Part shown: positions 1,641 to 8,511 of the stretch, one piece after another
How positions within the stretch are numbered: position 1 is the first letter of the stretch
How the letters are laid out: the number at the start of each line of letters is the position of its first letter
IMG/VR virus record: IMGVR_UViG_3300028957_000063
Coordinates: 1 to 8,511 of that record
Direction: 5' to 3' (one strand)
Origin: a virus
Taxonomy: Duplodnaviria; Heunggongvirae; Uroviricota; Caudoviricetes
Length of the DNA: 8,511 nt
The notes under the pieces: model-generated
Told to the model about the DNA's origin: nothing
Databases searched by the model: none
The model's input: the letters and a program-made list of their open reading frames with translations, nothing else
Program-made: the position numbers and the translations under genes

Positions 1641-4016
1641 TTAAGAATCAGCCTGACTCGGGATCAGTTTTTGCCAGATAACTGAAACGTATTTTGCCTG
1701 GTAACGGGCGTCATCAAGTGCATTATGGCGCTCACCTTCGAATGGAATAGCCGTTCTGGCATCGAAGTCTATGGCTTTCCCCAGCTCAACGATTGTGCGT
1801 ACATCGCGATCGTTGTAGTAACGCCACGGGCAGGGGATCCCCTGCCGTTCGTATGAACGGCGCAAAATCGTGTTGTCGAAGTTGGCTCCATTTCCCCAGA
1901 CCTGAACAAAAAATTCACCGGAGTTTTCGTCGATAAATTCCCGCAATTGTAACAGTGCATCATCTAACGGGATTTCATCGGTCATAATGGCAGATTGCGC
2001 TTCGCGTGATTGCTTAAGCCACCATTTAATGGTGTCCCGATCAATGACTCCGCCAGCAGTTTCCAGATCGATAGTCTTACTAAATTCCGGTCCCATATCT
2101 CCGGTTTGCGGATCGAAAAATATTGCACCTATTGAGATGATCGGGGCATCAGGATTTTTTCCCATGGTTTCAAGGTCGATCATTAGATGGTCACACGTCC
2201 TGCTGGTGGATGTGATTTCGTGATGACCGTTCACCGCAATTAAGGGATCTGCCGTCTCGCCAGTTTCATTATCGCTATTGTGATGCTGATTGCCGCCAGT
2301 GTTCTCCTTGTGTGGATGTTCAGCGCCTTCCATTTCCTCCGGATCATTTTCCTGAACTTCAACCTGATTCTCTTCATTGAATGTTTCCTGGTATGTTGCG
2401 TCGCCCATCACCGCGCCACAATCAGGGCAGTTGCCGCCACCGCTCTGACCGCAGGCGGTGCAGACTTTTTCCGTTTCTTGTTGGTTCTGGTTCACTGAAT
2501 CGCGGATTTCAATCCCCTTCACCCATTTCGGATCATTCGGGTCGCTAATTCCTGCAACAAATTCACCGCGAGAGGCCGCAAGCAACTTATCGGCGTCAGG
2601 CTGGCTGATATTGGCTGCCTGCATAATTTTGTTTACTTCGTCAGCGGTAACTTTTACCGGCTCTGGTTGTGCGGTCGTGTCAGATGCACCAGTATTTTGT
2701 TGTGAACCTGAGTACGTGCCGTTTTTACGTGCGAAGTATTCCTCTTTTGTGATTTCCGTAGCTCCCAAGGCCAGTGCTTTTTCCAGACCAGAAAGTTTGT
2801 TTGCGCGACCGTATTTTTCGCCGTCCTTATCGGTGAAAAGGAAATAGAACGGCCCCTCTCGTTCTACAGATGATTCGGCTTCCACTTCGCATTCGGTTTT
2901 TTCGTTGTTCGGCATTGCCGTTTCCACTGCATCAGCTTCTGGTACTGGCGACGGGAGAGTATCAGTTGCGCTCTGATTTGTTCCTTCATCTTCAAACACG
3001 CCCTTTGTAGTCAGGTATTCAGTGATGTATTTGTTCAGCGCCACAGGATCTTTGTGAATGTCGATCGGACGTTCACGAACGAGGCCGAAAATAGTCTGGC
3101 AGCTGTAGTGAAGCGCATCAGGCTGTTTGCGCATTGATGCGGAGATGCGCTTCCAGTCTTCGCGATCCTTGTCGATAACTTCATTTTTTGCCCAGCGATG
3201 GATGCTGCCGTCAATGTTTCCTGCATCAATATCACCAGGCCAGAGAGCGCAGGCCAGTTCTTCATCCAGTGTTTTCCATGTCTGCTTGTATTCGCGACGA
3301 ATGGCGGCAGTGGCGGGGTTGATTTTTCCTGCTGAGTTTTCAGTGTGCTGCCGGTTGACTCTGGCGCGGGCAAGATCAACAACAGACGTGTATTTCCCGG
3401 TTTCTTTGCGTTCGGCTTCGCGACGTTTTTTCCAGGTGCGTAATTCTGTCTGGATCTCAGGCCATTTTGCACCCGGCTTACATTTATGTTTAACCCACCC
3501 GATGGCGAGCAGTTTTAGTTCTGAATACATGACGTTAACTTCAGGCATTTTCATCAATGCCTCAACGATATGCCCGTCGAATGTTGCCATGTCCTCCTGC
3601 AACAATTCCTGTGCACTAATCACCATATCAACGGTGATGTTTTCACATGTACCGAACTTAACCAGGACCGCGTTCTGTACTTCAAGGGACAGCTTGTCAA
3701 AATTGACGTTCATCGGATCGGATTCTGGTTCGACCGGAACAAAGGAAGCGCCTTCCTCATCCCAGCGGTTTTCCAGCATATATTCGGTATCCCAGGAGTC
3801 GATGGCAGGGCGGGGCATGCCGGGTTTATCCTCGCAGACAAGAAATTTATAAGCGCAGTCCTGAGCAGCCGGATATTGCTCCAGGAATTGCCAGGTAAAT
3901 TTGGCACGGGCGCGGCGTTCGTCGCCGGCTTCAATGGCAGTGGCTACAGCGACTGCACCTTCTTCCTTTATTGCCTGTTCGTCCGGAATGGCGGCGCAAA
4001 TAAAGACTTTACTCAT
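1641..4016 (-). CDS. Large prophage protein (791 aa) with a C-terminal DnaQ-like DEDDh 3'-5' exonuclease domain, a CxxC-x10-CxxC zinc-ribbon motif and an acidic linker. Proteins of this kind are often annotated exodeoxyribonuclease VIII-like.
   Basis: Uninterrupted 2376-nt ORF. Exonuclease motifs read in the translation: MIDLETMG (D-x-E, encoded from 2183 downward), WGNGANFD and HNALDDA (H-x4-D). Cys cluster VCTACGQSGGGNCPDCG is encoded at about 2400-2462. Occupies the position of the recombination module (exo/bet or recE) in lambdoid prophages. Confidence 0.8.
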   Translation of the reverse strand: MSKVFICAAIPDEQAIKEEGAVAVATAIEAGDERRARAKFTWQFLEQYPAAQDCAYKFLVCEDKPGMPRPAIDSWDTEYMLENRWDEEGASFVPVEPESDPMNVNFDKLSLEVQNAVLVKFGTCENITVDMVISAQELLQEDMATFDGHIVEALMKMPEVNVMYSELKLLAIGWVKHKCKPGAKWPEIQTELRTWKKRREAERKETGKYTSVVDLARARVNRQHTENSAGKINPATAAIRREYKQTWKTLDEELACALWPGDIDAGNIDGSIHRWAKNEVIDKDREDWKRISASMRKQPDALHYSCQTIFGLVRERPIDIHKDPVALNKYITEYLTTKGVFEDEGTNQSATDTLPSPVPEADAVETAMPNNEKTECEVEAESSVEREGPFYFLFTDKDGEKYGRANKLSGLEKALALGATEITKEEYFARKNGTYSGSQQNTGASDTTAQPEPVKVTADEVNKIMQAANISQPDADKLLAASRGEFVAGISDPNDPKWVKGIEIRDSVNQNQQETEKVCTACGQSGGGNCPDCGAVMGDATYQETFNEENQVEVQENDPEEMEGAEHPHKENTGGNQHHNSDNETGETADPLIAVNGHHEITSTSRTCDHLMIDLETMGKNPDAPIISIGAIFFDPQTGDMGPEFSKTIDLETAGGVIDRDTIKWWLKQSREAQSAIMTDEIPLDDALLQLREFIDENSGEFFVQVWGNGANFDNTILRRSYERQGIPCPWRYYNDRDVRTIVELGKAIDFDARTAIPFEGERHNALDDARYQAKYVSVIWQKLIPSQADS

Positions 4017-4096
4017 TTTGTTTTAACCTCATTACAGATTTAAGGGTGAACAAATCCCTGCCATTGCTGGCATATAAAAATGAAACCGGATATTAA

Positions 4097-4300
4097 TTAC
4101 GGTGCTGTTTTAAGTCCTGCCGGGATTTCGTTATTGTCCATGCGAATAACTTTATCAACCGGATAACAGTTGCCGGGAATTTTCTGTTCCGCTGCGGCAG
4201 CCATGCATTCTTTCATTGAGTCATGTATACCAATAACAAGATCGACTGGTTCGCCTGTATTAAGAAAAACTGTCAGAACGAGTGCAAATGCTGTATTCAT
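4097..4300 (-). CDS. Hypothetical small protein (67 aa from MNTAFALVLTVFLNTG...) with a hydrophobic N-terminus, possibly signal-peptide or membrane associated
   Basis: ATG at 4298-4300 is preceded by AAAGGA. The upstream ORF's stop lies 2 nt before this ATG, suggesting translational coupling. Function unknown. Confidence 0.5.
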   Translation of the reverse strand: MNTAFALVLTVFLNTGEPVDLVIGIHDSMKECMAAAAEQKIPGNCYPVDKVIRMDNNEIPAGLKTAP

Positions 4301-4302
4301 TG

Positions 4303-4485
4303 TCAGCGTCCTTTTTGCATCAGGCGTAAACGGGCCAGCATTGAAACAATGCATATTTGATTTAATAGCTCCCGTTCGTGTTTTCTCTTATTAATGGCAT
4401 CTTCAGTAAATACAGGGTTACTGATTCTGACACCAATTTCAAAACAACCTTCAGACGTATTGACGTTTGGTAATAACGTTTCCAT
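4303..4485 (-). CDS. Hypothetical small protein (60 aa)
   Basis: ATG at 4483-4485 with a GAGGA Shine-Dalgarno sequence about 7 nt upstream. Co-oriented with and tightly coupled to the next small ORF. No family recognised. Confidence 0.5.
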   Translation of the reverse strand: METLLPNVNTSEGCFEIGVRISNPVFTEDAINKRKHERELLNQICIVSMLARLRLMQKGR

Positions 4486-4502
4486 TATCGCGTCCTCAAC
4501 AA

Positions 4503-4662
4503 TGAATTTTGTGATGCGGTGCCTGGTGCCTCCAGGTGACGTTAACCAGTTAACAATTAACGCCGGATACAGGGAAACCCATAAACACCCGATACGGGGG
4601 AACTAATCGCTTTTTAACTGTTCCGCGTGCGCTGAGCCGCATTCACCGCATCACAAAATTCA
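4503..4662. repeat. Perfect 19-bp inverted repeat pair flanking a 122-bp core
   Basis: TGAATTTTGTGATGCGGTG at 4503-4521 is the exact reverse complement of 4644-4662. The core contains hairpin CCTGG-TGCCT-CCAGG (4522-4536) and three closely spaced TTAAC/GTTAAC copies (4550-4570). Confidence 0.7.
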
Positions 4663-4665
4663 CTT

Positions 4666-4712
4666 TAAAAAGGGCGGGTATCACAAGGGAAAACAAAAAA
4701 CGGATACCCGCC
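4666..4712 (-). terminator. Candidate intrinsic terminator for leftward transcription (tL-like)
   Basis: 10-bp GC-rich stem (4673-4682 pairs with 4703-4712) with a 20-nt loop, followed on the minus strand by C then TTTTT (complement of 4667-4671). The loop is long and the U-tract short, so this is tentative. Confidence 0.35.
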
Positions 4713-5052
4713 AAAAGGTAATCAACATGGGTTGTTGTAGCGGGGTTGTCACTCAGGCGTATGGTCAACCTGACAACCCGGTGCCACCAATGGGGGTAAG
4801 GAATAACCCCGCCATACTTACCGCCGCGCCATTTCGCGGATTGCCACAACCGGAAGCGCACGGTCGACGAAAATTTAACGACAGGCTATCTATGAACCAG
4901 CTACCTCGCCGTGCGCTTTCGCGTTATGCCCTGACTTTTCAGGGATATATCCTTTCAGTAAACTGTCAGTGCCGGATGTTCACCCGTGTCCGGCGCACGC
5001 ACTCCACTTCACCCGTGGAGAACTCCTTAATTACCAACCCTCAGGAGGGTGA

Positions 5053-5286
5053 ATGTTAAAATCAACTCTTATTGCTAAATGCCTTTATCAAAATCGCATG
5101 GTAAGCAGCATTTCAATAGGCGAGTCTGCAGTTAAAAGTATTTTCGAAGAGTACTTTCCCGGGCATGATTTTAATAAATGGAATACCAAATTACCGCCAG
5201 CAGTTTCAACGCGTATTCTGAAAGCAACTGAAAGAGCAAGTACAATTCGCGTTAACTATTTCATTAAAGATTTGTGGGATCTTTGA
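5053..5286 (+). CDS. Hypothetical small protein (77 aa), encoded opposite to the surrounding leftward operon
   Basis: Strong Shine-Dalgarno AGGAGG 4-5 nt upstream of ATG 5053. AT-rich codon usage unlike the flanking DNA (by eye). Its 3' end overlaps the convergent 135-aa ORF by 23 nt. No family recognised. Confidence 0.45.
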   Translation: MLKSTLIAKCLYQNRMVSSISIGESAVKSIFEEYFPGHDFNKWNTKLPPAVSTRILKATERASTIRVNYFIKDLWDL

Positions 5287-5671
5287 TATCCACAGAGCCT
5301 AAAGTATGTGCATATGGATGTGCTATTGTGCGCCCTCGCAGATTTGCATCATTTTCTAAATTCACTGAACGAAACAGGGCATCAACAAGGCTCTGTACAA
5401 TGCAAAGGCAATCGAAGACTGTCGCCGTTTCTGTTTTGATTGATGAAAGAACATGGCCATTCACGCAAACAGAAATTACCCGTTTATTAACATCGCTTTC
5501 CTGCTTTTGATTATCAGAACCATATAGCCCAGAAAAAGCATTGCGCACATTACAAACCATATTATCGATGGTTTCTTTTTTGGTGTATGCCGGGTCAATT
5601 TTCACCAGACTATCACCGAGAGTCGTTGCAGCAATTGTCTGGATTTCTTTTGGTAAATCTTTAAATTCCAT
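5264..5671 (-). CDS. Hypothetical protein (135 aa), in an AT-rich accessory segment
   Basis: ATG at 5669-5671 with GAGG about 8 nt upstream. Starts 22 nt after the stop of the upstream 72-aa ORF. No family recognised. Confidence 0.55.
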   Translation of the reverse strand: MEFKDLPKEIQTIAATTLGDSLVKIDPAYTKKETIDNMVCNVRNAFSGLYGSDNQKQESDVNKRVISVCVNGHVLSSIKTETATVFDCLCIVQSLVDALFRSVNLENDANLRGRTIAHPYAHTLGSVDIKDPTNL

Positions 5672-5952: not shown

Positions 5953-5987
5953 NNNNNNNNNNNNNNNNNNNNNNNNNNNNNNNNNNN
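5953..5987. other. Run of 35 ambiguous bases (N): assembly gap or masked segment of unknown true length
   Basis: Directly visible in the sequence. Confidence 0.99.
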
Positions 5988-6054
5988 CTTCGCCTTCGGC
6001 AAGGCCTTCGAAGTATTCTTCGTAAGCCTTTTCCATGATTGTGTCGAAATCCAT
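5988..6054 (-). CDS. 5' fragment of a small prophage gene (MDFDTIMEKAYEEYFEGLAEGE...) truncated by the N-run. Possibly a YdaF/DUF1391-like protein, but this is very uncertain.
   Basis: ATG at 6052-6054 with AGGTGA upstream. The preceding gene's TGA ends 1 nt before this ATG. The reading frame runs into the 5953-5987 N-run, so the 3' end is unknown. Confidence 0.35.
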
Positions 6055-6414: not shown

Positions 6415-6822
6415 TTATTTGTTTGCGCTTCTTTTGCGAGCTTTGAGTAGTTCTTCAAAAAGTTTGTTGAAATTTTCAACTCGAGCACGCATCTCTGACA
6501 ACAGGGCCTTTTGCTCTGACTCAGGCAGTGCGTCGAACAGTTGAAGTAACTCTTTTTGATCTTCTGTCAGAATGGCTGGTTGATTATCCGGGAGCGGTTC
6601 GCCTGGTTGTTTATCTTCATCCCCAAAAAGAAGCCAAGTCGGTGAGCACTGAAGCGCTTGGCTCAGTGCGAATAATCTTTTCCCCGCCGGCTGTGTTTCA
6701 TCTCTTTCCCATTGAGAAATTGTTACGTGAGCCACTTTGACCAGCTTACCTAATGCGGCCTGAGACAGTTTTAATTTTTTACGCCTATGTAAGAGGCGAG
6801 CACCGAAGGTTTCGTTTTTCAT
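6415..6822 (-). CDS. dicA: Prophage repressor, HTH XRE-family, DicA-like (cI analogue), 135 aa
   Basis: N-terminal HTH (LSQAALGKLVKVAHVTISQWER). Strong resemblance from memory to E. coli DicA (blocks such as LFALS..LQCSPTWxLFGDEDKQP and EMRARVxNFNKLFEELLKAR). Divergently arranged with a Cro/DicC-like gene. Confidence 0.85.
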   Translation of the reverse strand: MKNETFGARLLHRRKKLKLSQAALGKLVKVAHVTISQWERDETQPAGKRLFALSQALQCSPTWLLFGDEDKQPGEPLPDNQPAILTEDQKELLQLFDALPESEQKALLSEMRARVENFNKLFEELLKARKRSANK

Positions 6823-7661: not shown

Positions 7662-8511
7662 AAAGGTGAAAACCGGCAGTTCATCCAGCAAGTCAGTATT
7701 GACCTGGCTTGCTGATATGTGCGGTGCCGATTTGTGTGCATACCCGTCTGTATCTGCACTGGCAGAAGTAACGGAACTGAACAAAAAGACTGTGCAGGAC
7801 AGCTTACGACACCTGATGGAGATTGGGTTAATTGTTGATACCGGTGAGAGAAAAGGCAGAACAAAGCAAATTGTGGTGTACCGACTTATCGGTGTAGAAG
7901 AAAGTGTTGCCGAGCCTGAATACACCCAAAAACGGGAGTCTTTAAAGGTGGGTAAAATTGGTGCTGTTAATAAAAACAGTACCGAAAATGGTTATGTTTC
8001 AGCACAAAACAGCCCCAAAAACGGAACTCTTAGCTGCATGGAAAATAACCAAAGACACCCAAATTTTCCATCAAAGACACCCAAAAACGGATCACGGAAC
8101 CCAAAGGAACCCAAAGATCTAACCCCCACACATAACGCACGCGAGAGTGCTCCGACCAGTGAGCAGGAAGTTTTGTCGTTACAGGCAGCACCCCCTGTAT
8201 TCCTGGGTGGCCTGAGCGAACCCATCGGAAAATTTCCGATGACCGATAGCTGGTATCCGTCACGGGATTTTCGACGACGGGCTGCGTTGTGGGGGATGGC
8301 TTTGCCGGAGACAGAATTTACACCTGCTGAACTTGCCGCCTTCCGGGACTACTGGGCAGCGGAGGGGAAAGTATTTACGCAGATTCAGTGGGAGCAGAAA
8401 TTCGCCCGTCACGTAAATCACGTCAGGGCGCAGGTTAAACCAGTCAGCAAGGGGGTGAACCATGCAGCAGCACCAGGTGGCACCGCATCACGGGCAGTTC
8501 AGGAAATTCGG
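7633..8511 (+). CDS. Phage replication initiation protein (O-like: N-terminal winged-helix/HTH, C-terminal DnaT-like region), 3' end beyond the window
   Basis: Open frame from ATG 7633 to the window end with no stop (hand-translated: MSIDALRWAKKVKTGSSSSKSVLTWLADMCGADL...). Not in the ORF track, presumably because it has no stop in the window. Overlaps the upstream gene by 29 nt. The C-terminal part (FRDYWAAEGKVFTQIQWEQKFARH) looks like DnaT-type replication proteins. Iteron-like repeats lie in the linker. Confidence 0.75.
   Translation, partial: MSIDALRWAKKVKTGSSSSKSVLTWLADMCGADLCAYPSVSALAEVTELNKKTVQDSLRHLMEIGLIVDTGERKGRTKQIVVYRLIGVEESVAEPEYTQKRESLKVGKIGAVNKNSTENGYVSAQNSPKNGTLSCMENNQRHPNFPSKTPKNGSRNPKEPKDLTPTHNARESAPTSEQEVLSLQAAPPVFLGGLSEPIGKFPMTDSWYPSRDFRRRAALWGMALPETEFTPAELAAFRDYWAAEGKVFTQIQWEQKFARHVNHVRAQVKPVSKGVNHAAAPGGTASRAVQEIR
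7922..8115. repeat. Iteron-like direct repeats inside the replication gene: putative phage origin of replication
   Basis: Core CCCAAAAACGG occurs three times (7925-7935, 8014-8024, 8080-8090). There is a further ACACCCAAA copy at 8055-8063 and a tandem GGAACCCAAA x2 at 8096-8115. The block lies in the linker of the O-like gene, as the ori does in lambda O. Confidence 0.5.

What the first reader, a model, noticed from the sequence alone, without database searches (positions are those of the whole stretch)
4503..4662. Perfect 19-bp inverted repeats flanking a 122-bp core next to the terminator-like hairpin
An exact 19-bp inverted repeat of this length is unlikely by chance. Three readings are possible. 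(a) A small non-autonomous mobile element or MITE-like insertion. (b) A long-range RNA stem in the leftward transcript, which would make a perfect 19-bp duplex suited to RNase III cleavage; the downstream arm ends about 6 nt before the GAGGA ribosome-binding site of the 60-aa gene, so it could gate that gene's translation. (c) Paired protein-binding sites. It does not resemble the ERIC or REP sequences I can recall.
Basis: seen in the sequence. Interest (0 to 1): 0.55.

Follow-up and report, generated by a model that had tools for sequence, protein, structure and literature searches.

The report
Long RNA stem upstream of dicB
The 19-bp inverted repeat is real: it is the long closing stem of a conserved folded RNA lying between a DicF-like small RNA and the cell-division inhibitor gene dicB in a Qin-type prophage. 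In E. coli K-12 the matching stem is where RNase III is reported to cut the operon transcript, so this is a known kind of phage RNA-processing element, poorly annotated, and not a mobile element.

Summary
Arms 4503-4521 and 4644-4662 are 19/19 complementary with 122 nt between them; 200 dinucleotide shuffles gave at most 15. The window is the early-left arm of a Qin/dicB-type lambdoid prophage (int, xis, exonuclease, DUF1482 gene, dicB, DicA-like repressor). The repeat lies on the dicB-sense (minus) strand, between the terminator of a DicF-position sRNA and the dicB ribosome-binding site.

In RNA it forms a 21-bp helix (P1) closing a roughly 150-nt multi-helix RNA. All helices are supported by covariation, and G.U pairs are valid only on this strand. 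A 21-bp P1 recurs in Klebsiella phages with a different sequence.

The RNA is a divergent branch of the STnc100/PasD family, which normally has a 6-9-bp P1. It scores below Rfam's threshold.

In K-12 the orthologous stem coincides with the reported RNase III-made 3' end of the 72-nt DicF. That cut would leave exactly the family's 9-bp P1.

Reading (b) is supported. The MITE and protein-site readings are rejected. An effect on dicB translation is plausible but unproven.

The new points are the family link and the recurrence of this RNA upstream of the division inhibitors dicB, kil and tciA.

The parts
4499..4667 (-). Whole structured RNA element (STnc100-like, 'G-type'), from just after the U-tract of the upstream terminator to just before the dicB Shine-Dalgarno sequence
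   Evidence: The covariance model R1 scores 169 bits (E=2e-51) on the minus strand against 32 bits on the plus strand. Rfam STnc100 gives 34.3 bits at 4508-4660, minus strand. The RNA fold of 4470-4730(-) has z=-5.8.
4644..4664 (-). The inner 9 nt (4652-4644, GAUGCGGUG) are the family-wide core P1. The outer 12 nt are the extension.
   Evidence: Across 22 long-P1 relatives, 11 of 21 P1 pairs show compensatory changes and 97.4% of cells are paired.
4501..4521 (-).
4625..4640 (-). P2 hairpin (GCGGC UCAGC GC A CGC), nearly invariant in sequence
   Evidence: 100% paired, but almost no variation, so no covariation evidence
4565..4624 (-). P3: a 3-bp base helix (4624-4622 with 4567-4565) enclosing a hypervariable arm (4621-4568)
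   Evidence: the base pairs covary (A-U to C-G in 6-7 sequences). The interior differs completely between copies.
4538..4564 (-). P4 hairpin (GGCGUUAAU / loop UGUUAACUG / GUUAACGUC)
   Evidence: 5 of 9 pairs have compensatory changes
4522..4536 (-). P5 hairpin CCUGG-AGGCA-CCAGG, part of the family signature UCACCnGGAGGCACCnGGCACC
   Evidence: U-A to G-C compensatory change in P7 and the Klebsiella copies
4652..4653 (-). Predicted RNase III cut in the 5' strand of P1, after position 10 of the 19-nt arm. Inferred by homology to the 3' end of the 72-nt DicF of K-12.
   Evidence: K-12 dicF starts at 1649382. The 72-nt RNase III species is reported in PMC5069750 and PMC9438474. Inference only, good to about 2 nt either way.
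4510..4511 (-). Predicted partner cut in the 3' strand of P1, assuming the 2-nt 3' overhang typical of RNase III. It would leave dicB mRNA starting AAAAUUCAUUGUUGAGGA...
   Evidence: Inference from established RNase III geometry; not measured
4667..4712 (-). Intrinsic terminator hairpin plus U-tract of the DicF-position sRNA, immediately 5' of P1
   Evidence: It is homologous in position to the DicF terminator of K-12.
4493..4497 (-). dicB Shine-Dalgarno sequence GAGGA
   Evidence: Read from the sequence; it lies 7 nt before the AUG at 4485-4483
4303..4485 (-). dicB (60 aa), a cell-division inhibitor
   Evidence: Pfam PF05358 E=1.5e-37; annotated dicB in the closest genome

Best explanation
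The inverted repeat is the closing helix (P1) of a roughly 150-nt structured RNA. This RNA is transcribed leftward as part of the DicA-repressed dicB operon of a Qin-type prophage. It sits between the terminator of a DicF-position sRNA and the dicB start. It is a divergent, operon-internal branch ('G-type') of the prophage STnc100/PasD/EcOnc27 RNA family. In that family P1 is normally 6-9 bp; here it is extended to 21 bp, long enough for RNase III.

Proposed mechanism: transcripts that read through the DicF-type terminator fold P1, and RNase III cuts both strands near the middle of the helix. The cut gives the upstream sRNA its alternative, longer 3' end (the 72-nt DicF of K-12). It releases a core RNA closed by exactly the family's 9-bp P1. 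It also detaches the dicB-ydfD message with a short leader of about 25 nt.

Shown here: the structure, its conservation and strand, and its family relationship. Taken from the literature on the K-12 orthologue: RNase III dependence. Inferred: the exact cut sites in this prophage and the effect on dicB expression. Folding predicts a more accessible Shine-Dalgarno sequence after cleavage.
For: - **Repeat is not chance:** the repeat is exact and exceeds every shuffle.
- **Context:** dicB lies downstream. Gene order is the same as in K-12 Qin and strain 2013C-4465. The dicF-dicB spacer of K-12 aligns throughout.
- **Strand:** K-12 has U.G and G.U where the window has C-G and G-C. Across 28 relatives there are 102 G.U cells against 26 A.C cells. 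The model scores 169 bits on the sense strand and 32 on the antisense strand.
- **Covariation, MAFFT alignment A3:** 94.7% of cells are paired against 31-43% when partners are slid. 14 pairs have compensatory changes, and 0 of 500 shuffles reach the observed value.
- **Covariation, model-fitted alignment A4:** 11 of 21 P1 pairs are compensatory and 97.4% of cells are paired.
- **Long P1 kept with other sequences:** Klebsiella phage ST405-OXA48phi1.2 has a perfect 21-bp P1, AACAGACCUUGCAAUGCAGUG. L025 and L066 also keep long helices with other sequences.
- **Family link:** Rfam STnc100 gives E=1.3e-4 here and 1e-6 to 2e-3 in relatives. The G-type model finds STnc100-type copies at E=1e-8 to 1e-18. 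Those copies have a P1 of 4-13 bp.
- **RNase III:** processing of full-length dicBF mRNA gives a 72-nt DicF (Faubladier 1990, as cited in PMC5069750, and PMC9438474). 1649382+71 = 1649453 is position 10 of the 19-nt 5' arm. A genome-wide rnc comparison lists 1649470 'dicF-dicB' as an RNase III-dependent, previously known site.
- **Accessibility:** predicted Shine-Dalgarno unpaired probability is 0.15-0.66 uncleaved and about 0.95 after the predicted cut.
Against: - No cleavage data exist for this prophage.
- The '72 nt' figure comes from secondary citations, because the 1990 paper could not be read. It fixes the site only to within a few nucleotides.
- The RNA-seq site (1649470) rests on 26 reads and has coarse resolution: sites were forced to be at least 400 bp apart.
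- That same dataset shows no wild-type coverage there. This argues against a very stable excised core RNA in K-12 under those conditions.
- The P1/P7/D6 copies are also operon-internal yet keep only an 8-9-bp P1, so a long P1 is not needed for the core RNA as such.
- The dicB AUG is predicted to stay paired in a local hairpin with or without cleavage, so the net effect on translation is uncertain.
- The Rfam score is below the gathering threshold (34.3 against 47).
Confidence: 0.8

Rival explanations
1. P1 acts mainly as a translational or stability gate for the toxic dicB message, independently of or in addition to RNase III. On this view the 21-bp helix, 3 nt from the Shine-Dalgarno sequence, limits ribosome access, and removing or melting it switches dicB on.
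For: The helix ends 3-5 nt before GAGGA. Predicted Shine-Dalgarno accessibility rises from about 0.4 to about 0.95 when the 5' part is removed. G-type copies always lie 32-66 nt upstream of the start of a small, mostly toxic gene with a Shine-Dalgarno sequence: dicB, kil, tciA/TerB, and a lambda-Kil operon in Klebsiella.
Against: The Shine-Dalgarno sequence and AUG are not part of P1. The AUG is predicted to be paired in a local hairpin in both states. dicB and kil also occur without the element, using the same translation initiation region. No experimental data exist. This rival is compatible with the best explanation rather than exclusive of it.
Confidence: 0.3
2. The long stem is only a structural clamp that protects both ends of a stable, trans-acting sRNA (like STnc100/PasD). 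RNase III cleavage is incidental.
For: Family members are abundant Hfq-associated sRNAs (PasD by RIL-seq; EcOnc27/STnc100 by Hfq CRAC and in outer membrane vesicles). The core is highly conserved and carries a hypervariable arm that could hold a seed.
Against: A 6-9-bp P1 suffices for the stand-alone family members. The extension to about 21 bp is seen in the early-left operon copies and is maintained by covariation in three sequence versions. K-12 data show RNase III-dependent processing there.
Confidence: 0.12
3. The 160-bp unit is a miniature inverted-repeat transposable element (MITE-like) inserted next to the terminator.
For: It has a perfect 19-bp terminal inverted repeat and a size of about 160 bp. 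It is present in 4631 of 5426 complete E. coli genomes, at a median of 2 and up to 9 places per genome.
Against: - There is no direct repeat flanking the arms (TTTTTAAAG ... TTGTTGAGG).
- All copies examined are at one syntenic position: after a DicF-type terminator (or after the tRNAs in the P1-like phages), and 15-40 nt before a small gene. The copy number simply follows the number of prophages.
- The 4 dicB and 6 kil loci without the unit (a seventh kil locus was scored empty only because of a point change in the search motif) lack the whole non-coding block and carry an ORF instead. In the dicB cases homology resumes inside the 3' arm (CAAAATTCATTGTTGAGG).
- The arms vary while keeping RNA-type pairing that includes G.U.
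- The interior is a conserved structured RNA.
Confidence: 0.02
4. The two arms are paired binding sites for a DNA-binding protein, such as the DicA-like repressor or a recombinase, that loops the 122-bp core.
For: Only the symmetry of the two arms.
Against: Arm sequences are replaced wholesale in the Klebsiella, P1/P7 and L066 copies while complementarity is kept. G.U pairs make the symmetry imperfect at the DNA level in K-12 and Rac. According to PMC10448788, the known DicA operators lie at dicA-dicC and at dicBp.
Confidence: 0.02

Closest known systems
The dicF-dicB intergenic region of the Qin cryptic prophage, E. coli K-12 (RNase III processing of the dicBF transcript; Faubladier, Cam & Bouche 1990)
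   Same: It is the orthologous locus. The flanking genes are the same, the arms are at the same place, and the core is nearly identical. The covariance model gives 176 bits for K-12 and 169 for the window. The RNase III-dependent 3' end of the 72-nt DicF falls in the middle of the 5' arm.
   Different: The K-12 stem has two wobble pairs (U.G and G.U), whereas the window's is perfect. The variable P3 arm differs. The upstream sRNA in the window is not DicF by Rfam. The K-12 literature I could read describes RNA sizes and enzymes. It does not describe the stem or the structured RNA it closes.
STnc100 (Rfam RF02076) / PasD1-2 / EcOnc27: prophage-encoded, Hfq-associated sRNAs
   Same: Same architecture: P1 closing helix built on GGUG...CACC, GAAU, a P2 hairpin, a variable arm, a 3' hairpin, then UCACCnGGAGGCACCnGGCACC. 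The match is significant in both directions.
   Different: - Scores are below the family's gathering threshold (31-44 bits against 47).
- P2 has a different sequence (GCGGCU..GCGCACGCGG instead of CCCCCU..GGGG).
- P1 is 21 bp instead of 6-9 bp.
- It lies inside the early-left operon just before a division-inhibitor gene. The classical members lie behind their own promoter, downstream of Q or stx2 and before the esterase or lysis genes.
Lambda N-leader RNase III hairpin and the sib site; T7 intercistronic RNase III signals (from established knowledge, not tested here)
   Same: These are phage polycistronic early transcripts carrying a roughly two-turn duplex just upstream or downstream of a gene. 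RNase III cleavage there changes translation or stability and separates functional RNAs.
   Different: Those are simple, often bulged hairpins. Here the duplex closes a conserved five-helix RNA that belongs to an sRNA family. There is no sequence similarity, and no Rfam hit other than STnc100.
MITEs / ERIC / REP elements
   Same: Short size and terminal inverted repeat.
   Different: No target-site duplication, no dispersed insertion sites, no precise empty sites, and RNA-type covariation.

Membership tests
Rfam STnc100 (RF02076) | Score at or above the curated gathering threshold (47 bits) | tested here: not met
   34.3 bits, E=1.3e-4, at 4508-4660 minus strand. Relatives score 31.2-43.8 bits.
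Rfam STnc100 (RF02076) | Consensus architecture: closing helix, 5' hairpin after GGUGAAU, 3' hairpin in UCACCnGGAGGCACCnGGCACC | tested here: met
   The cmscan alignment shows the shared helices and motifs. The helices are supported by covariation. The pattern scan retrieves both types.
Rfam STnc100 (RF02076) | Reciprocal detectability: a model of this branch finds bona fide STnc100-type copies | tested here: met
   Model R1, built only from G-type sequences, hits C-type copies at 35-67 bits, E=1e-8 to 1e-18.
Rfam STnc100 (RF02076) | Stand-alone, Hfq-associated sRNA in the prophage late region | tested here: not met
   Here it lies inside the leftward early operon, with only 2-4 nt between the upstream terminator's U-tract and P1 and no room for a promoter. 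Hfq binding is not testable with these tools.
RNase III processing site | Uninterrupted dsRNA of about two helical turns (about 20 bp or more) | tested here: met
   21 consecutive pairs: 19 Watson-Crick plus G.U and A-U.
RNase III processing site | Orthology to an experimentally mapped RNase III-dependent end | tested here: met
   The 72-nt DicF 3' end maps to K-12 1649453, which is arm position 10. The rnc-dependent site 1649470 is marked 'Known: Yes'.
RNase III processing site | rnc-dependent cleavage of this RNA in its own host | not testable with these tools
   Needs end-mapping in wild type and rnc mutant.
MITE / non-autonomous transposable element | Target-site duplication flanking the terminal inverted repeats | tested here: not met
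   The flanks are TTTTTAAAG and TTGTTGAGG; they are not a direct repeat.
MITE / non-autonomous transposable element | Copies at unrelated loci, and precise empty sites | tested here: not met
   Of the IMG/VR loci with enough upstream sequence, 74 of 78 dicB loci and 73 of 79 kil loci carry the element at the same position (counting 2 dicB and 1 kil copies that miss the exact search motif by a point change). The 4 dicB and 6 kil loci without it have a different ORF in place of the whole non-coding block. In the dicB cases the breakpoint lies inside the 3' arm.
DicF (Rfam RF00039) | Match to the DicF model | tested here: not met
   No DicF hit in the window at E<=1. K-12 dicF scores 76.7 bits. 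The finding lies downstream of the DicF position, not in it.
HK022 put-type antiterminator RNA | Similarity to the element in the HK022 genome | tested here: not met
   R1 finds nothing in HK022 (best E=0.72). This tests sequence and structure similarity only, not function.

The most novel reading that the evidence does not exclude
The dicF-dicB, kil and tciA leaders together with STnc100/PasD/EcOnc27 form one large, modular superfamily of enterobacterial phage RNAs. On this reading they share a conserved protein- or factor-binding scaffold (GGUGAAU ... UCACCnGGAGGCACCnGGCACC) that presents a hypervariable arm. The RNA is deployed in two ways: as promoter-driven single copies or tandem arrays between Q and the lysis genes, and as an RNase III-excised cassette placed directly in front of host cell-division inhibitors. 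The extended P1 would then be a dedicated maturation handle. It would couple production of a trans-acting scaffolded sRNA to expression of the toxic gene, giving three products (DicF-type sRNA, core RNA, toxin mRNA) from one read-through transcript.
Probability: 0.25. Interest if true: 0.6.

Novelty: new variant of a known kind. Interest (0 to 1): 0.38.

Why it matters
dicB, kil and dicF are prophage genes that arrest host cell division, alter phage susceptibility and affect EHEC virulence. How their expression is kept in check after transcription is poorly understood.

Three points follow from this analysis:
- The spacer before dicB is a conserved, covarying RNA, not a loose linker.
- Its long stem is the RNase III entry point.
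- After the cut, what remains has the shape of the abundant STnc100/PasD sRNAs.

Together these give a concrete, testable model for how one read-through transcript is divided into regulatory and coding products.

The analysis also shows that current annotation misses this RNA. Rfam's gathering threshold does not capture it, and RefSeq listed no feature under the match in 27 of the 30 sampled E. coli hits. Yet the sequence is present in about 85% of complete E. coli genomes, usually in several copies.

Tried and rejected
- **MITE reading.** I looked for target-site duplications, dispersed copies and empty sites. None fit. The loci without the element are module swaps.
- **Third copy of an arm.** The 13-nt match at 8479-8491 (I19) lies inside a coding region and has no neighbouring element motifs. 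I treat it as chance.
- **tRNA or tmRNA.** None found.
- **Other Rfam families.** Only STnc100 matched at E<=1.
- **HK022 put-like antiterminator.** The model does not match the HK022 genome.
- **Own promoter for the element.** None was detected in the promoter scan of 4000-5400, and only 2-4 nt separate the U-tract from P1.
- **Long-range anti-Shine-Dalgarno pairing.** The pairing between the region 5' of the DicF-type hairpin and the dicB initiation region (MFE) involves sequence that is not conserved in K-12. I dropped it.
- **Primary literature.** Faubladier 1990 and Faubladier & Bouche 1994 are not held. The supplement of Altuvia 2018 is not held.
- **Genome-contig scan with DicB.** It gave only 7 loci, all Escherichia/Shigella-type (one labelled as a Veillonella MAG, probably mis-binned), so it added little diversity.

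Full report
**1. The observation.** The repeat is exactly as described. Arms 4503-4521 and 4644-4662 are 19 nt each, 100% complementary, with 122 nt between them (I2; sequence). It is the longest perfect inverted repeat in the window. In 200 dinucleotide-preserving shuffles, the longest perfect repeat with a loop of 300 nt or less was 9-15 nt, mode 10. The repeat is therefore not a chance feature.

**2. Where it lies.** On the minus strand the window encodes, in order:
- an integrase (2-1297);
- an excisionase-like protein (1317-1568);
- a 791-aa exonuclease (1641-4016);
- a DUF1482 protein (4097-4354);
- a 60-aa DicB (4303-4485; Pfam DicB E=1.5e-37);
- further upstream, small ORFs and a 135-aa DicA-like repressor (6415-6822).

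A divergent cro-like gene and a CII-like gene lie on the plus strand. This is the gene order of the Qin cryptic prophage of K-12 (dicA, ydfABC, dicF, dicB, ydfD, ydfE) and of an intact prophage in strain 2013C-4465.

The repeat lies in the spacer between the position that dicF occupies in K-12 and dicB. On the minus strand, an intrinsic terminator (stem 4712-4703/4682-4672, U-tract 4671-4667) is followed after 2-4 nt by the first arm. The second arm ends 5 nt before the dicB GAGGA (4497-4493).

**3. It is an RNA helix on the dicB-sense strand.**
- The minus-strand RNA 4470-4730 folds at -98 kcal/mol, z=-5.8 against shuffles. The arms form a 21-bp helix (19 Watson-Crick pairs plus G.U and A-U) that closes a multi-branched domain.
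- The K-12 orthologue aligns over the whole spacer. At two arm positions it has U.G and G.U where the window has C-G and G-C. These pairs exist only in RNA of this strand.
- I collected relatives from E. coli genomes, phage records and IMG/VR contigs and aligned 28 distinct copies (A3).
- For a five-helix structure (P1 to P5), 94.7% of cells form pairs, against 31-43% when partners are slid by 1-3 columns. 14 pairs show changes on both sides, and none of 500 column shuffles reaches the observed values.
- G.U cells outnumber A.C cells 102 to 26.
- A covariance model built from this alignment scores 169 bits on the minus strand and 32 on the plus strand.

**4. The long P1 is selected as a duplex, not as a sequence.** Copies in early-left operons keep a helix of about 21 bp while changing its letters.
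- Klebsiella phage ST405-OXA48phi1.2 has a perfect 21-bp P1: AACAGACCUUGCAAUGCAGUG with its exact complement.
- L025 has GGGCUUUGCAAUGCGGUG / CGCCGCAUCGCAAAGCCUG.
- L066 and L060 carry compensatory changes. The kil-type copies have one bulged A and a U.G pair.
- On 22 such sequences aligned to the model, 11 of 21 P1 pairs show compensatory changes and 97.4% of cells pair. This alignment is fitted to the structure, so it leans towards it. The MAFFT-based count does not have that bias.

**5. What the 122-nt 'core' is.**
- Rfam gives one hit in the window: STnc100 (RF02076) on the minus strand at 4508-4660, 34.3 bits, E=1.3e-4, below the gathering score of 47. Relatives score 31-44 bits.
- The shared features are the closing helix built on GGUG...CACC, the GAAU that follows it, a 5' hairpin, and the 3' signature UCACCnGGAGGCACCnGGCACC.
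- A scan of IMG/VR with that signature returned at least 120 loci. These fall into two types.
- 'C-type' copies (GGUGAAUCCCCC...) are classical STnc100/PasD. Their P1 is only 4-13 bp, mostly 6-9. Many lie directly behind a TTGACA-17-TAAATT promoter. They lie downstream of a Q-like gene and upstream of esterase or lysis-region ORFs, sometimes as tandem arrays. This agrees with the published context of PasD, STnc100 and EcOnc27.
- 'G-type' copies (GGUGAAUGCGGCU..GCGCACGCGG) are the kind found in this window.
- The G-type model detects C-type copies at E=1e-8 to 1e-18, so the two types form one superfamily. By Rfam's own threshold the window's RNA is not a called member. I treat it as a divergent branch.

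**6. Recurrent context of the G-type.**
- In every G-type copy, a small gene with a Shine-Dalgarno sequence starts 32-66 nt after the 3' signature. In the cases I could identify, that gene is a cell-division inhibitor or a relative of one.
- The genes are: DicB; Rac-type Kil (PHROG 'Kil protein for bacterial septation inhibition'); TciA/TerB of P1-like phages P7 and D6; and, in a Klebsiella phage, small ORFs followed by a lambda-Kil-like gene. A few are unknowns.
- In lambdoid early-left operons the element is preceded by a DicF-type sRNA with its terminator. In K-12 Rac that sRNA is annotated KilS.

**7. RNase III.** I could not read the primary paper.
[quoted passage not shown] Termination gives the 53-nt species (PMC5069750; PMC9438474).
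- dicF starts at 1649382, so a 72-nt RNA ends at 1649453. This is position 10 of the 19-nt 5' arm (K-12 arm 1649444-1649462).
- An rnc-mutant RNA-seq study lists 1649470 'dicF-dicB' as an RNase III-dependent site and marks it as already known. That evidence has low read numbers and coarse resolution.
- A cut after arm position 10, with the usual 2-nt 3' overhang on the other strand, would leave a core RNA whose ends pair through exactly GAUGCGGUG/CACCGCAUC. That 9 bp is the P1 length seen in the stand-alone family members and in P7 and D6.
- I therefore read the outer 10-12 pairs as a processing handle added to an STnc100-type RNA embedded in an operon. Transferred to the window, the cuts fall near 4653|4652 and 4511|4510 on the minus strand. 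These positions are inferred, not measured.

**8. Consequences for dicB (inference).** Most transcripts should stop at the DicF-type terminator. In K-12, both ydfABC-dicF and full-length species are seen. Read-through transcripts would be cut in P1, which would:
- separate the sRNA, the core RNA and the dicB-ydfD message;
- raise the predicted unpaired probability of the Shine-Dalgarno sequence from 0.15-0.66 to about 0.95;
- leave the AUG in a local hairpin (AUAAUG-GAAA-CGUUAU) in both states.

Whether cleavage raises or lowers DicB output cannot be decided here.

**9. Rejected readings.**

MITE:
- The arms have no flanking direct repeat.
- The high copy number (4631 of 5426 genomes, median 2 places) follows the number of prophages.
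- Of 78 dicB and 79 kil loci in IMG/VR with enough upstream sequence, 74 and 73 carry the element at the same place. This counts 2 dicB and 1 kil copies that miss the exact search motif by a point change.
- The remaining 4 dicB and 6 kil loci lack the whole non-coding block, DicF-type sRNA included, and carry an ORF instead. In the dicB cases homology resumes inside the 3' arm. One kil locus holds a 5'-truncated element. This is lambdoid mosaicism, not transposition.

Protein sites: arm sequences are replaced while pairing is kept, and the DNA symmetry is imperfect where the RNA has G.U.

A put-like antiterminator was considered, but the model finds nothing in HK022.

**10. Verdict.** Reading (b) is essentially right, and for the K-12 orthologue the RNase III processing is long known. 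What is added here:
- The stem closes a conserved, covarying RNA of the STnc100/PasD superfamily.
- The stem is an extended version of the family's P1, with a length kept by covariation across genera.
- This RNA recurs as a leader cassette in front of unrelated division-inhibitor genes.

This is a variant of known things, of moderate interest.

Noticed in passing
window 4672-4730 (minus strand): The sRNA at the dicF position is not DicF by Rfam: there is no hit at E<=1, whereas K-12 dicF scores 76.7 bits. It keeps the GGCGG...CCGCCC terminator frame but has a different loop and 5' part (GGCGGGUAUCCGUUUUUUGUUUUCCCUUGUGAUACCCGCCC). At least five or six such loop variants precede the element in other prophages. 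The Rac one is the annotated sRNA KilS. This looks like an allelic series of DicF-type sRNAs, possibly with different targets.
   Followed up: partly
window 4851-4921 (minus strand): A long irregular hairpin (CGAAAGCGCACGG ... CCGUGCGCUUCCG) lies in the conserved non-coding block upstream of the DicF-type sRNA. It is homologous to the K-12 ydfC-dicF spacer, where RNase III makes the 5' end of the 190-nt DicF precursor. If so, the sRNA is bracketed by two RNase III duplexes.
   Followed up: partly
window 5954-5988: A run of 35 N (masked or unresolved bases) lies inside a leftward ORF between the repressor and dicB.
   Followed up: no
window 7918-8115: A cluster of iteron-like direct repeats (AAACAGCCCCAAAAACGGA and CAAAGACACCCAAA families) lies in the rightward replication-gene region. 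It is probably the prophage origin.
   Followed up: no
L081 4370-5473 (also L043 1716-2340, L031 363-1004, L023 2309-3366): STnc100-type elements occur as tandem arrays of 3-5 copies spaced about 250-480 nt apart. In L081 the array lies between a Q-like antiterminator gene and downstream lysis-region ORFs.
   Followed up: partly
L011 (phage P7) 1304-1388 and L010 (phage D6) 1304-1388: A tRNA-Sec-like structure (Rfam RF01852; 46.6 and 43.1 bits, gathering score 47) lies just upstream of the P1-family copy of the element, in the tRNA-tciA-ban operon. The D6 record annotates it as a tRNA-Ser with a UGA anticodon.
   Followed up: no
L297 598-762 (Klebsiella phage ST405-OXA48phi1.2): This copy has a perfect 21-bp closing helix of entirely different sequence. 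It lies upstream of two tiny ORFs and a lambda-Kil-like division inhibitor, a third, unrelated inhibitor family behind the same RNA.
   Followed up: partly
window 4470-4490 (minus strand): The dicB start codon lies in a small local hairpin (AUAAUG-GAAA-CGUUAU) that is also present in K-12. This may keep dicB translation intrinsically low.
   Followed up: no
L007 (genome-contig hit): A contig labelled as a Veillonella parvula MAG carries an E. coli-type dicB locus. It is probably a binning artefact.
   Followed up: no
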